A DNA stretch of 64,000 nucleotides. Source: Eledone cirrhosa. Lineage: Eukaryota. The notes under the pieces were generated by a model. The model searched no databases. It had not been told where the DNA came from and saw nothing but the letters and a program-made list of their open reading frames with translations. The DNA is taken from positions 4,898,001-4,962,000 of the forward strand of contig OZ024763.1 of NCBI GenBank assembly GCA_964016885.1, given 5' to 3'. Each line of letters begins with the position of its first letter. Within the stretch, counting starts at the first letter, position 1. Shown here in pieces: positions 3,491 through 26,309 of this stretch. A program made the position numbers and the translations under genes.

Positions 3491-3708
3491 TACGAGGGTA
3501 GGCTGACCAACATACTCTCATGGAATGACCAAATAAGGTTTATTTTTCAACATGCAAGATTTCACAGCTCTAGCATCACTCCTTCATAGGCTGACCAAGA
3601 TACTCTTATGGAATGACCAAATGAGGTTTATTTTTCAACATGCAAGATTTCACACCCTAGCATCACTCCTTCATAGTGAGCCTATGAACTTTTAAGCCTA
3701 CCTTCGTA
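3491..3708 (-). mobile_element. MITE-like element with 2 internal 88-bp monomers (4 monomers at 9426-9819, 5 at 16433-16914)
   Basis: TACGAGGGTAGGCTGA...AGCCTACCTTCGTA termini with TA ends; lengths differ by multiples of 88. Confidence 0.8.
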
Positions 3709-3824
3709 TATGTAAACAATGTATTTATTTAATATACAAATAATTACTATTGCTAAAGTTAAAAAATGTACAAAAAATACTTTAAGTTCAGTTTTTAATT
3801 CATGCAACAATTGTGTCAATAGTT

Positions 3825-4277
3825 AAAGAAATTCGAAATCATTTTTGCACCCATTTTTGCGATTAAGTAAAGACGGAGTTATCGTTCTTGAGATTTCGGC
3901 CCGGAGAAATTTAAGGAACTGATGTCGCTAAATCGCCAAATCATTTACCTGCCCCATTGCACCATGGGAGGGTAATGGCTGCCTTTTATTTTTTAAACGA
4001 TGGCAGATTCTTTAGTTTCTTTCGTAACATCTTGTTCCTTGTTTCATATAAGTAAATAATTAAAACATTTTGGCGAGAAAGATATTAAAGAAACTGCCAT
4101 GGTTTTTAAAAAATAAAAGGCAGCCATTACCCTCCCATGATGCAACGGGGCAGGTAAATGATTTGGCGATTTAGCGACATCAGTTCCTTAAATTTCTCCG
4201 AGCCGAAATCTCAAGAACGATAACTCCGTCTTTACTTAATCGCAAAAATGGGTGCAAAAATTATTTCGAATTTCTTA
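3825..4277. repeat. Palindrome core, about 190-bp arms and about 75-bp spacer (also about 9937-10389 and 17032-17484)
   Basis: AAGAAATTCG...GATGGCAG is mirrored by CTGCCATG...CGAATTTCTT. Confidence 0.93.
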
Positions 4278-4303
4278 GTAATTATACTTACATTGTTTAC
4301 ATA

Positions 4304-7300
4304 TACGAAGGTAGGCTTAAAAGTTCATAGGCTCACTATGAAGGAGTGATGCTAGAGCTGTGCAATCTTGCATGTTGAAAAATAAACCTCATTTGGACAT
4401 TCCATGAGAGTATCTTGGTCAGCCTATGAAGGAGTGATGCTAGAGCTGTGAAATCTTGCATGTTGAAAAATAAACCTCATTTGGTCATTCCATGAGAGTA
4501 TCTTGGTCAGCCTATGAAGGAGTGATGCTAGAGCTGTGAAATCTTGCATGTTGAAAAATAAACCTAATTTGGTCATTCCATGAGAGTATCTTGGTCAACC
4601 TATGAAGGAGTGATGCTAGAGCTGTGAAGTCTTGCATGTTGAAAAATAAACCTCATTTGGTCATTCCATGAGAGTATATTGGTCAGCCTATGAAGGAGTG
4701 ATGCTAGAGCTGTAAAATCTTGCATGTTAAAAAATAAACCTTATTTGGTCATTCCATGAGAGTATCTTGGTTAGCCTATGAAGGAGTGATGCTAGAGCTG
4801 TGAAATCTTGCATGTTGAAAAATAAACCTCATTTGGTCATTCCATGAGAGTATCTTGGTCAGCCTATGAAGGAGTGATGCTAGAGCTGTGAAATCTTGCA
4901 TGTTGAAAAATAAACCTTATTTGGTCATTCCATGAGAGTATCTTGGTCAGCCTATGAAGGAGTGTTGCTAGAGCTGTGAAATCTTGCATGTTGAAAAATA
5001 AACCTCATTTGGTCATTCCATGTGAGTATCTTGGTCAGCCTATGAAGGAGTGATGCTAGAGCTGTAAAATCTTGCATGTTGAAAAATAAACCTCATTTGG
5101 TCATTCCATGAGAGTTTCTTGATCAGCCTATGAAGGAGTGATGTTAGAGCTGTGAAATATTGCATGTTGAAAAATAAACCTCATTTGGTCATTCCATGAG
5201 AGTATCTTGGTCAGCCTATGAAGGAGTGATGCTAGAGCTGTGAAATCTTGCATGTTAAAAAATAAACCTCATTTGGTCATTCCATGACAGTATCTTGGTC
5301 AGCCTATGAAGGAGTGATGCTAGAGCTGTGAAATCTTGCATGTTGAAAAATAAACCTCATTTGGTCATTCCATGAGATTATCTTTGTCAGCCTATGAAGG
5401 AATGATGCTAGGGCTGTGAAATCTTGCATGTTGAAAAATAAACGTCATTTGGTCATTCCATGAGAGTATATTGGTCAGCCTATGAAGGAGTGATGCTAGA
5501 GCTGTGAAATCTTGCATGTTGAAAAATAAACCTCAGTTGGCCATTCCATGAGAGTAGCTTCGTCAGCCTATGAAGGAGTGATGCTAGAGCTGTGAAATCT
5601 TGGATGTTGAAAAATAAACCTCATTTGGTCATTCCATGAGAGTATCTTGGTCAGCCTATGAAGGAGTGATGCTAGAGCTGTGAAATCTTGCATGTTGAAA
5701 AATAAACCTCATTTGGTCATTTCATGAGAGTATCTTGGTCAGCCTATGAAGGAGTGATGCTAGAGCTGTGAAATCTTGCATGTTGAAAAATAAACCCCAT
5801 TTGGTCATTCCATGAGAGTATCTTGGTCCGCCTATGAAGGAGTGATGCTAGAGCTGTGAAATCTTGCATGTTAAAAAATAAACCTCATTTGGTCATTCCA
5901 TGAGAGTATCTTGGTCAGCCTATGAAGGAGTGATGCTAGGGCTGTGAAATCTTGCATGTTGAAAAATAAACCCCATTTGCTCATTCCATAGAGTATATTG
6001 GTCAGCCTATGAAGGAATGATGCTAGAGCTGTGAAATCTTTTATGTTGAAAAATAAACCTCATTTGGTCATTCCATGAGAGTATCTTGGTTAGCCTAAGA
6101 AGGAGTGATGCTAGAGCTGTGAAATCTTGCATGTTGATAAATAAACCTCATGTGGTCATTCAACGAGAGTTTCTTGGTCAGCCTATGAAGGAGTGATGCT
6201 AGAGCTGTGAAATCTTGCATGTTGAAAAATATACCTCATTTCGTCATTCCATGAGTGTATCTTGGTTAGCCTATGAAGGAGTGATGCTAGAGCTGTGAAA
6301 TCTTGCATGTTGAAAAATAAACCTCATTTGGTCATTCCATGAGAGTTTCTTGGTCAGCCTATGAAGGAGTGATGCTAGAGCTGTGAAATCTTGCATGTTG
6401 AAAAATAAACCTCATTTGGTCATTCCATGAGAGTAGCTTGGTCAGCCTATGAAGAGGTGATGCTAGAGCTGTGAAACCTTGGATGTTGAAAAATAAACCT
6501 CATTTGGTCATTCCATGAGAGTATCTTGGTCAGCCTATGAAGGAGTGATGCTAGAGCTGTGAAATCTTGCATGTTGAAAAATAAAGCTCATTTGGTCATT
6601 CCATGAGAGTATCTTGGTCAGCCTATGAAGGAGTGATGCTAGAGCTGTGAAATCTTGCATGTTGAAAAATACACCTCATTTGGTCATTCCATGAGAGTAT
6701 CTTGGTCAGCCTATGAAGGAGTGATGCTAGAGCTGTGAAATCTTGTATGTTGAAAAATAAACCTAATTTGGTCATTCCATGAGAGTATCTTGGTCAGCCT
6801 ATGAAGGAGTGACGCTAGAGCTGTGAAATCTTGCATGTTGAAAAATAAACCTCATGTGGTCATTCCATGGGAGTATCTTGGTCAGCCTATGAAGGAGTGA
6901 TGCTAGGGCTGTGAAATCTTGCATGTTGAAAAATAAACCCCATTTGGTCATTCCATGAGAATATCTTAGTCAGCCTATGAAGGAGTGATACTAGAGCTGT
7001 GAAATCTTGCATGTTAAAAAATAAACCCCATTTGGTCATTCCATAGAGTATATTGGTCAGCCTATGAAGGAATGATGCTAGAGCTGTGAAATCTTGCATG
7101 TTGAAAAATAAACCTCATTTGGTCATTCCATGAGAGTATCTTGGTTAGCCTATGAAGGAGTGATGCTAGAGATGTGAAATCTTACATGTTGATAAATAAA
7201 CCTCATTTGGTCATTCCACGAGAGTTTCTTGGTCAGCCTATGAAGGAGTGATGCTAGAGCTGTGAAACCTTGCATGTTGAAAAATAAACCTCAATTGGTC

Positions 7301-24296: not shown

Positions 24297-25133
24297 ACAA
24301 ACACACACACACATACATGTACACACACAGACACACACATACATACACATACACACACATACACACACATACATACATGTACACACACACACATACATAC
24401 ACAGACACACACATACACATACATACATACATACACAGACACACACATACATACATACACAGATACATACATACACATGCACACATACATACATACATAC
24501 ATACACAGACACACACATACATACATGTACACACACAGACACATACATACATACAGACACACACATACATACACAGATACATACATACACAGACACACAT
24601 ACATACATACACAGACACACACATACATACATACACAGATACATACATACACAGGCACACATACATACATACACAGACACACATACATACATGCACACAC
24701 ACAGATACACATACATACACAGACACACACATACATACATGTACACACACAGACACACATACATACATACATACATACAGACACACACATACACAGACAC
24801 AGACACACATACATACATACACAGACACACACATACACATATACATACATACATACACAGACACACATACATACATACACAGACACACATACAGACACAT
24901 ATACATACATACACAGACACACATACATACATAGACACACACATACACAGACACACATACATACATACAGACACACACATACACAGACACACATACATAC
25001 ACAGACATACACACATACATACACATACATACATACACAGACACACACACACACATACATACATACATACAGACACACACACACACACACACACACATAC
25101 ATACAGACACACACACATATACAGACACACACA
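24297..25133. repeat. (CA)/(CATA)/(CAGA) compound microsatellite; similar tracts at 90-565, 14510-15067, 34960-35322, 35800-36030, 36897-37420, 45175-45855, 49695-50495, 50628-52030, 54075-54338
   Basis: Simple-sequence composition. Confidence 0.95.
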
Positions 25134-25372
25134 TGAATTAGAGAAGGATATTTTTTTATTATTTATTATTGTTGGATATAGTTTCAAATCAAAGAAATAA
25201 TAATAATAATAATAATTATATATATATATATATTTATTTATTTTATTTTTTTACTGGTTTCAGTAACTGGACTGGGGCCATGCTGGGGCATCATATTCAG
25301 GGGTTTTGTGAATCACACAAATACACACACTAAAAACAAGCAAAAAAAAAAATTAAAAAAAAGACAACTTAC

Positions 25373-25462
25373 GTCACATTTTTTTATGGAAGACTTTAAT
25401 AATATTTTAAAAGCTCCACTTTTGGTTAAGAAATTCACCTCACCTGTCATGCATTCATTTAT
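25373..25462 (-). CDS. CFAP74: CFAP74 coding exon 15
   Basis: tatcag acceptor, gtaagt donor; INECMTGEVNFLTKSGAFKILLKSSIKKCD. Confidence 0.93.
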
Positions 25463-26122
25463 CTGATAAGTAAAATATATATATATATTTATCTTTATAC
25501 ATCATCATCATCATTATTACTGTTCAACCCTTTAGCATTTACATTACTCATTACTCTATATATACTATTGTATTTTTGTGGTAAAGGCTTTATCTTACAT
25601 AATTATCTCACATAATATTAAATCTATGAGATTTTGATATTATTTATTTTGAGAACAATACCTTAACGTCAGTATGAGTGGCCAGTTATGACCAGTTTCA
25701 ACAGAAAGAGGTGAGAGAATTCTGGCAGGATATGGCCAGTTTAAATGCTAAAGGGTTAATGTATTTACCATGCTAATATGGGTTAGACAGATAGTCACGT
25801 TATGAGACAAGTCAGGTCTGGAGACCACATCTTGCTCATACAGATCTATAATTTGGCTTCATTTCTATGACTGGATGTCGTTCCTAATGCCAACAACATT
25901 TACACGAGGGGCAATCGATCGACAAGGTCCCAGACCTCACTCACTTACCAAGAGGGGTGGAACTCCTCAAATGAGACCAATTGCTGATGCTATTACTCCT
26001 GACTGAAGGAGCAATGTGAAATAAAGTGTCATGCTGAAGGACATAACACATCACCCGATCAAGTAATCAAACTCTCAAACCAGCCACTAAGCCGCATGGG
26101 TGAGAAGTATAAAACTGTGACC

Positions 26123-26309
26123 TACAAGGGTAGGCCGAAAAGTTCATAAACTAACTATGAAGGAGCGATGCTAGAGCTGTGAAATCCTGCATGCATTAAT
26201 TTCAACTCTTCTTATTAACAACTGCATTGTTTCTTTGAAAATAAATCTCATTTGGTCACTCCATGAGAGTATCTTGGTCAGCCTATGAACATTTCAGCCA
26301 ACCTTCATA
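26123..26309 (+). mobile_element. Tc1/mariner-type MITE, unexpanded relative of the 88-bp satellite
   Basis: Imperfect TIRs TACAAGGGTAGGCCGAAAAGTTCATA / TATGAACATTTCAGCCAACCTTCATA; interior contains both halves of the monomer plus about 40 extra bp. Confidence 0.8.

What the first reader, a model, noticed from the sequence alone, without database searches (positions are those of the whole stretch)
3491..26309. Birth of an 88-bp satellite from a mariner-type MITE, with several stages present in one gene
Seen: the roughly 187-bp MITE at 26123 contains the monomer split by about 40 extra bp bounded by repeated TGCAT; deleting that gives the 88-mer. CTATGAA occurs just inside the left end and within the right TIR and is the monomer junction, pointing to microhomology-driven amplification. 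Stages: 1 unit (26123); 2, 4 and 5 units between termini (3491, 9426, 16433); 40-46 units behind one TIR (4304, 10425, 17511).
Basis: partly seen in the sequence, partly recalled or inferred. Interest (0 to 1): 0.72.

Follow-up and report, generated by a model that had tools for sequence, protein, structure and literature searches.

The report
Transposon-born satellite recolonising its parent copies
This 88-base repeat is the trimmed middle of a small dead mariner transposon; the arrays in this gene are three duplicated copies of one mirror-symmetric block, not separate growth stages, and the repeat also sits inside six unrelated old copies of the transposon, likely copied into them by recombination.

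Summary
The origin claim holds; the staging does not. The 88-mer equals the core of a ~201-bp MITE (CTATGAA to CTATGAA, 143 bp) minus 55 bp between ATG repeats. It is not the 26123 copy minus a TGCAT-bounded piece, which gives 93 bp. The MITE is an internal deletion of a decayed 1.25-kb mariner found here. The window's 2/4/5 and 40/46/42-unit arrays are the two arms of one palindromic cassette, tandemly triplicated between two CFAP74 exons. The cassette recurs at about 32 sites on C22-C26, likely by segmental duplication. A real series exists at independent loci with the 143-bp unit: 2, 5, ~6 and 12 units between both TIRs, and a ~54-kb array. The CTATGAA junction occurs 1,679 times; an equally long internal repeat gives 0. 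Six old MITE copies without cassette DNA hold 88-mers, three with a cassette-specific variant, which points to interlocus import. MITE-to-satellite birth is known (miDNA4, Xstir, Tetris), and this scan noted it for other families in this genome. Import resembles Drosophila Rsp-like entering 1.688 arrays. Modestly novel.

The parts
2215..2412 (-). CFAP74 coding segment (second Ig-like domain, profile positions 120-168), downstream of the arrays in gene direction
   Evidence: Pfam PF24770, E 2.8e-7, above cut-off
3040..3490 (+). Cassette copy 1: fixed left flank (LF), ending in the TA run that took the MITE
3491..3708 (-). Copy 1 short arm: MITE derivative with 2 x 88 bp, full left TIR at the 3708 end, right TIR short of 16 bp at the 3491 end
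3709..4303 (.). Copy 1 palindromic spacer (172-nt arms 98% complementary, 107 nt between)
4304..7857 (+). Copy 1 long arm: left TIR + 40 x 88 bp, ending in a CA/TA microsatellite without a right TIR
8075..9425 (+). Copy 2 carried flank: dispersed repeat RF, TA runs, LF (LF starts 8953)
9426..9819 (-). Copy 2 short arm, 4 x 88 bp
9820..10424 (.). Copy 2 palindromic spacer
10425..14508 (+). Copy 2 long arm, left TIR + 46 units
15069..16432 (+). Copy 3 carried flank (RF, TA runs, LF from 15960)
16433..16914 (-). Copy 3 short arm, 5 x 88 bp (copy 2's four units plus one)
16915..17510 (.). Copy 3 palindromic spacer
17511..21235 (+). Copy 3 long arm, left TIR + 42 units (one of 66 bp) + 19 bp, broken off into RF sequence
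24001..24135 (-). CFAP74 coding segment (second Ig-like domain, profile positions 3-39)
   Evidence: Pfam PF24770, E 7.6e-7
26123..26309 (+). Ordinary old single copy of the MITE family with a private 15-bp deletion; not the parent of the arrays
27150..27287 (-). CFAP74 coding segment (first Ig-like domain)
   Evidence: Pfam PF24771, E 3.2e-7

Best explanation
The 88-bp satellite is the 143-bp core of a mariner-derived MITE minus 55 bp; it occupies both arms of one palindromic cassette that likely spread by segmental duplication, and its units were likely copied by interlocus recombination into unrelated old MITE copies. Steps. (1, shown) A 1.25-kb mariner gave a ~201-bp MITE: its first ~117 bp joined to its last ~84 bp. 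(2, shown) Across the genome the core is repeated head to tail at CTATGAA, giving 2 to about 380 units of 143 bp at separate loci. (2b, inferred) The cause is strand slippage during replication or gap repair, helped by TIR pairing and a local hairpin that involve this 7-mer. (3, shown) One insertion, in a TA run of the LF sequence, has a right TIR short of 16 bp and a core short of 55 bp. (3b, inferred) This lineage arose once, probably on C26. (4, shown) LF-MITE-spacer stands mirrored. (4b, inferred) The arms grew by unequal exchange, and the cassette was copied with variable flanks through TA microsatellites and inverted-repeat instability; three copies lie in tandem in CFAP74. (5, inferred) 88-mers entered resident old MITEs by template switching in the shared 3' segment.
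For: Majority A+B equals the 88-mer at 88 of 88 positions. Four full-length and one internally deleted parent carry both MITE ends; PF01359 E 2e-15 and 7e-12 in 2 of the 3 segments scanned. CTATGAA junction: 1,679 exact hits, the 100 listed falling into 62 loci on C1-C12 (hand count), against 0 for the junction of the other long-period 7-mer, GACTATG. Arrays of 2, 5, ~6 and 12 units lie between both TIRs; the C1 array spans ~54 kb. The three window units differ by 2-5% substitutions and share monomer variant strings. The 88-junction has 1,200 hits, and the contig-ordered list starts at C20, so none lies on C1-C19. All 67 exact TIR-flank junctions are on C23/24/26. Distant cassettes share passenger flanks and have ragged distal ends. 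Six hybrid loci lack cassette DNA in the ~3 kb fetched. At C20 the shell differs from the majority at 20 of 151 sites and the tract at 2 of 225 (p 5e-7). Variant 28C: 13 of 22 hybrid 88-mers (3 of 6 loci), 192 of 790 cassette 88-mers, 0 of 54 dispersed 143-type units, 0 of 18 in small 143 arrays, 1 of 177 in the C1 array.
Against: The terminal unit in the cassette keeps only CTA of the right CTATGAA, so how the first 88-88 junction formed is open. No empty LF site was found, so the insertion is inferred from the TA flanks alone. Only 3 of 6 hybrids carry 28C; 21G is not diagnostic (3 of 54 dispersed units). Over the A segment alone, hybrid 143-type units (1.71 substitutions per 39 bp, n=7) are barely more diverged than hybrid 88-mers (1.36, n=22), so the old-shell/young-tract contrast is strong only at C20 and C23:19.37. 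The direction of transfer is not proven. The control junction spans a more variable part of the MITE, so its search is less sensitive. Only 100 of 1,200 and 100 of 1,679 matches were listed. One assembly; no RNA data.
Confidence: 0.75

Rival explanations
1. One reading: the satellite was born in this gene from a 26123-like copy and grew through 2, 4, 5 and 40-46 units at separate insertions.
For: The arrays and the MITE lie in one gene; the monomer matches the MITE.
Against: The 26123 deletion gives 93 bp. All six arrays share one insertion-site flank and monomer variant strings. Simpler, single-unit forms of the cassette lie on C26.
Confidence: 0.03
2. The cassette is a foldback transposon (Tetris-like) that moves by cut-and-paste and carries the satellite in its arms.
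For: Long inverted arms with internal tandem repeats. One fixed end with 33 exact copies. Some clusters have LF inverted at both outer ends. L116 has ~340-bp inverted LF ends.
Against: Distal ends are ragged and lie in microsatellites. Passenger flanks beyond the fixed end are shared among distant sites. No target-site duplication was seen at the C26:4.02 cluster. Listed copies fall only on C22, C23, C24 and C26.
Confidence: 0.12
3. The 88-mer was born inside a hybrid [143][88]n MITE with intact TIRs, which transposed to the six hybrid sites and to the cassette site, or the 55-bp deletion recurs locally during duplication; no import is needed.
For: All 6 hybrids begin with a 143-type unit and keep the right CTATGAA, which would explain how the 7-bp junction arose before the TIR loss. 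L117 has the same order inside LF.
Against: At C20 and C23:19.37 the 88-mers lack the private changes of the local first unit and are near-consensus inside decayed shells. 28C segregates in both hybrids and cassettes. Recurrent deletion predicts hits on C1-C19, and none is listed.
Confidence: 0.15
4. The triplication or the palindrome is an assembly artefact.
For: Palindromes and satellites are error-prone in assemblies (general knowledge). No listed contig spans the whole stretch.
Against: Copies differ by 2-5% substitutions and by their own higher-order patterns. About 32 diverged sites exist. Raw reads of another study with the same species label cover the spacer (X21).
Confidence: 0.03

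Closest known systems
miDNA4, Tc1/mariner MITE of Xenopus tropicalis (Scalvenzi and Pollet 2014; seen only through part 2 of 5 of review PMC12628747, and passages of PMC9659126)
   Same: Mariner MITE holding a unit as single monomer or array; short direct repeats proposed to drive it; arrays lose their TIRs.
   Different: There the MITE is proposed to have captured a pre-existing repeat. Here the unit is the MITE's own core, including the last transposase codons and the inner TIR, the parent mariner is identified, and two unit lengths (143, 88) exist.
Xstir / Xmix of Xenopus (Hikosaka and Kawahara 2004; seen only through PMC12628747 text and the PMC9659126 table)
   Same: Tandem repeat derived from internal MITE sequence; MITE, array and composite forms coexist.
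   Different: The proposed mechanism is excision of a loop between two nearby elements. Here junctions fall at one 7-mer in many separate loci.
Tetris foldback element, Drosophila virilis (PMC4079207; abstract and first part of the Discussion read)
   Same: Inverted arms with variable numbers of internal tandem repeats that swell to kb arrays.
   Different: Tetris has defined ends and 8-10-bp TSDs. This cassette has one fixed and one ragged end, no TSD seen, and its repeats come from a nested mariner MITE.
Rsp-like satellite invading 1.688 clusters in D. simulans and D. mauritiana (PMC7403614; abstract and passages)
   Same: A rare repeat spreads to sites pre-seeded by an abundant repeat, by proposed interlocus gene conversion or eccDNA.
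   Different: There the two satellites are unrelated and joined by microhomology. Here the landing sites are dispersed copies of the transposon that gave rise to the satellite, with about 50 bp of true homology.

Membership tests
Tc1/mariner-derived MITE | TA target-site duplication | tested here: met
   TA on the left in 23 of 30 copies, on the right in 25 of 30, on both in 19 of 30
Tc1/mariner-derived MITE | Terminal inverted repeats | tested here: met
   31 bp inside the TA in the 30-copy majority
Tc1/mariner-derived MITE | Short, non-coding, dispersed, high copy | tested here: met
   ~201 bp; 3,079 candidates, 40 scored, on many chromosomes
Tc1/mariner-derived MITE | Transposase-coding parent with the same ends | tested here: met
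   L204, L210, L215, L221 (~1.25 kb) and L216 (950 bp) of 20 loci examined; PF01359 over cut-off in L204 and L215; all copies have stops or frameshifts
mariner (D,D34D) clade | 34 residues between the second and third catalytic aspartates; YSPDLAPSD-type motif (motif name recalled) | tested here: inconclusive
   L216 reads YSPDLAPSDYHLF with 34 residues after the QNNAPAH position, but that first D is mutated in this copy; counted by eye
MITE-derived satellite DNA (miDNA4/Xstir kind) | Monomer is part of a MITE; forms from single unit to long arrays | tested here: met
MITE-derived satellite DNA (miDNA4/Xstir kind) | Heterochromatic or centromeric location of large arrays | not testable with these tools
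   No cytology or chromatin data
Foldback transposon (Tetris/FB/Galileo kind) | Long inverted arms with internal tandem repeats | tested here: met
Foldback transposon (Tetris/FB/Galileo kind) | Two defined termini with target-site duplication | tested here: not met
   Left end fixed. Right end variable, in microsatellite; flanks shared between sites; no TSD at the one cluster checked on both sides
Helitron/Helentron-borne satellite | Array bounded by Helitron ends | tested here: not met
   A hairpin-CTAG Helitron-like end (recognised from memory) lies ~280 bp outside LF in one C26 lineage only, and homology between those loci runs past it

The most novel reading that the evidence does not exclude
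A satellite born from a transposon uses the thousands of dead dispersed copies of its own parent as homology landing pads: 88-mers are pasted into old MITEs, always behind the resident unit (6 of 6), and then expand (1 to 14 units seen). Together with junctions confined to one TIR-linked 7-mer, this would make the family a countable natural experiment on how new satellite loci are seeded without transposition.
Probability: 0.6. Interest if true: 0.62.

Novelty: new variant of a known kind. Interest (0 to 1): 0.46.

Why it matters
How satellites start and how they reach new sites is usually argued from end products. Here the parent transposase element, the MITE, dimers, mid-size arrays, a ~54-kb array and a derived 88-bp lineage all lie in one genome with base-level junctions. 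A diagnostic deletion and one variant mark the derived lineage, so its spread can be traced. If import into old parent copies is confirmed, any TE-born satellite comes with ready-made seeding sites, which makes the interlocus-conversion model testable by presence/absence at six named loci. It also shows that apparent stages within one locus can be duplicates.

Tried and rejected
TGCAT-bounded deletion of 26123: gives 93 bp. Parent among the 30 best PF01359 loci: none had the MITE's ends; it was found instead through the 3' end motif. Empty LF site: 0 matches, which does not show absence. Pfam on the L216 C-terminus: only a weak DDE_3 match below cut-off. Regional clustering of dimers: single MITEs fall in similar regions, so no claim is made. 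Helitron carrier: rejected. An exon for CFAP74 profile positions 40-119: none recognised in the four stretches scanned on the minus strand, so a single intron is likely but not shown. Sequencing runs: no RNA holder listed. Contigs of other organisms covered the cassette patchily or not at all, which is uninformative. 16-bp TIR duplications: none matched my pattern in the fetched loci. Look-ups of earlier findings by sequence returned nothing. Literature: 8 searches listed no cephalopod report of this family and no paper on satellites entering their parent TE copies. Most subscription journals are not searched, the miDNA4 and Xstir originals were not read, and Repbase/Dfam could not be checked, so the MITE may already be named. 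No supplements were read.
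Full report
Setting. The window is G000:C24:4,898,001-4,962,000 in a 3.0-Gb animal genome. Earlier scan notes call it octopus-type (not tested by me). Three minus-strand segments match CFAP74 Ig-like domains above the Pfam cut-off (3 of 5 segments scanned). The arrays lie between the segments at 24001-24135 and 2215-2412, and the 26123 element lies between 27150-27287 and 24001-24135. So 'one gene' holds. No RNA was available to confirm the splicing.

Observation. Tandem Repeats Finder gives 88-bp arrays at 3499, 4336, 9434, 10457, 16441 and 17543. 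Splitting them gives 2, 4, 5 and 40, 46, 42 units plus a partial one. The 26123 element is 187 bp with TA at both ends and has relatives on many chromosomes. Thirty copies align with sharp ends, 31-bp TIRs and TA flanks, and differ from their majority by 6.9% on average (these 30 were the best matches, so the family may be older).

The monomer. The majority has CTATGAA at positions 33 and 176, a period of 143. Removing the 55 bp between TTGCATG and GACTATG gives the window's 88-mer at 88 of 88 positions. It is a cousin, not the parent.

The parent. The 30 best transposase loci did not carry these ends. The MITE reads RDYVEK-stop across its middle, so I searched for the 3' end of a transposase followed by the MITE's 3' part: 157 matches. 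Of 20 loci examined, four are ~1.25-kb elements with both MITE ends and one is a 950-bp deletion form. PF01359 scores E 2e-15 and 7e-12 in L204 and L215. The copies are 68-77% identical over their length and all are broken. The MITE is their first ~117 bp joined to their last ~84 bp.

The stages in the window are duplicates. With arrays masked, flank and spacer blocks recur three times with 13-21 substitutions per 370-610 bp. In each unit the short minus-strand array and the long plus-strand array face away from a palindromic spacer and share the same TIR and TIR flank. The 5-unit array is the 4-unit array plus one monomer, variant for variant, and long arrays share first or last monomers. The short arm's right TIR has lost 16 bp between repeats of period 16. 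So the window holds one insertion, mirrored, then triplicated.

The cassette elsewhere. All 30 spacer loci fetched carry 88-type units behind the same TIR. The exact TIR-flank junction occurs 67 times, all on C23, C24 and C26, mostly as inverted pairs. Pooled positions give about 32 clusters more than 200 kb apart on C22, C23, C24 and C26 (a lower bound). C26 holds the simplest forms: single-unit arms and a sister form with the same truncated TIR but a different internal deletion (L116). One end is fixed (33 exact copies). The other end is ragged and lies in CA/TA runs, and passenger flanks are shared between distant sites. Chains of up to five mirrored cassettes occur. This fits segmental duplication better than cut-and-paste (inference). 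No empty site was found.

The real series. The head-to-tail junction occurs 1,679 times; the 100 listed matches fall into 62 loci on C1-C12 (hand count), of which I examined 11. L031, L033, L058 and L060 are dimers of the 143-bp core, with both ends present or nearly so. L169, L168 and L167 have 5, ~6 and 12 units between both TIRs. L032, L057 and L059 are irregular or interrupted. An array on C1 runs from about 27,456,780 to 27,511,230, about 380 units, with no TIR at either end (ends mapped, interior sampled). Three of four dimers share 0-1 substitutions between their units against 8-13 per unit, so they likely formed early. Longer arrays share 3-6, so they likely grew in place; the between-locus mean is 0.58.

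Why this junction. The MITE has ten direct repeats of 6 bp or more. The junction predicted from GACTATG (7 bp, period 89) has 0 matches, though that pattern spans a more variable region. CTATGAA differs in being part of the right TIR, and its left copy folds with the TIR into a 7-bp hairpin (-4.5 kcal/mol, DNA parameters). I infer TIR-assisted slippage during replication or gap repair; this is untested. For the 88-bp cassette the terminal 7-mer is cut to CTA. Its first junction therefore either predates the TIR loss, used 3 bp, or was copied from a 143-bp dimer. I cannot order these events.

88-mers inside unrelated MITEs. The 88-type junction has 1,200 matches and none before C20 in the contig-ordered list, which suggests one origin. 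Three searches for mixed arrangements gave 3, 4 and 1 matches, six distinct loci on C20, C23 (four) and C26. Each begins with a 143-type unit, holds 1-14 88-mers, keeps the right CTATGAA, and has no spacer or LF within the ~3 kb fetched. Their flanks share only other dispersed repeats. At C20 the shell differs from the majority at 20 of 151 sites and the tract at 2 of 225. At C23:19.37 the first unit has 10 changes that the 88-mers lack. Variant 28C is in 13 of 22 hybrid 88-mers and 192 of 790 cassette 88-mers, but in 0 of 54 dispersed 143-type units (units within an array are not independent, and 3 of 6 loci carry it). Against this reading: 21G is not diagnostic, the pooled A-segment divergence differs little (1.71 against 1.36), and the direction of transfer is unproven. 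Import by ectopic recombination in the shared 3' segment is the best reading; a mobile hybrid MITE is the main rival.

Known systems and verdict. MITE-to-satellite birth is described for miDNA4 and Xstir (through reviews), foldback-borne arrays for Tetris, and seeding into pre-existing repeats for Rsp-like/1.688. This scan has noted similar series for other MITE families in the same genome. The element meets the mariner-MITE tests, and the cassette works like a foldback but fails its end and TSD test. What is added here is a fully traced pedigree, a junction control, and likely recolonisation of parent copies. My eight literature searches listed no report of the last point, but they cover open-access text only. 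New variant of a known kind; interest 0.46.

Noticed in passing
L226-L227, G000:C26:19,921,000-19,927,400: Cassette arrays here mix 88-bp and 63-bp units; the 63-mer is a further 25-bp deletion, so a third unit length is arising.
   Followed up: partly
window 17543-21235: Array 3 has a higher-order repeat: monomers 10-22 recur as 28-40. Array 2 has repeated blocks too. Array 3 also has one 66-bp unit, matching the TTGGTCA repeat of period 22 in the MITE.
   Followed up: partly
L229-L230, G000:C24:5,923,600-5,937,300: Five palindromic cassettes chained with opposed arrays and bounded by inverted LF: a ~13.6-kb nested mirror structure.
   Followed up: partly
L202, L203, L206-L209, L211, L212, L214: A near-identical, apparently young repeat family carries a ~90-bp fragment of this mariner's 3' end with a truncated TIR; it makes up about half of the 100 matches listed. 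Its nature was not determined.
   Followed up: no
MITE positions 9/25 and 171/187: The TIR has an internal repeat of period 16. An earlier scan note describes a 16-bp satellite grown from a mariner TIR in this genome; whether it is this family was not established.
   Followed up: partly
window 3491-4600 and the two other copies: The mirrored arms can fold back (87% of bases paired in the predicted DNA fold), so CFAP74 pre-mRNA would likely contain long double-stranded stretches.
   Followed up: no
L116, L118, L119, L120, L158, L162 (C26): A Helitron-like hairpin-CTAG end lies ~280 bp outside the cassette's fixed end in one lineage.
   Followed up: partly
window 23338-23857, 27305-27776, 40854-41343: Three copies of another ~480-bp palindromic element (87-93% identical), unrelated to the cassette.
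   Followed up: no
window 1310-1879, 21665-23297, 30868-31278, 42950-44093, 52232-52793, 53038-53879, 57723-60450: Further minisatellites (42, 48, 21, 19, 87, 70 and 21 bp). The 48-, 87- and 70-bp units have BLAST matches to dispersed single-copy pieces in the window, so they too may be repeat-derived.
   Followed up: no
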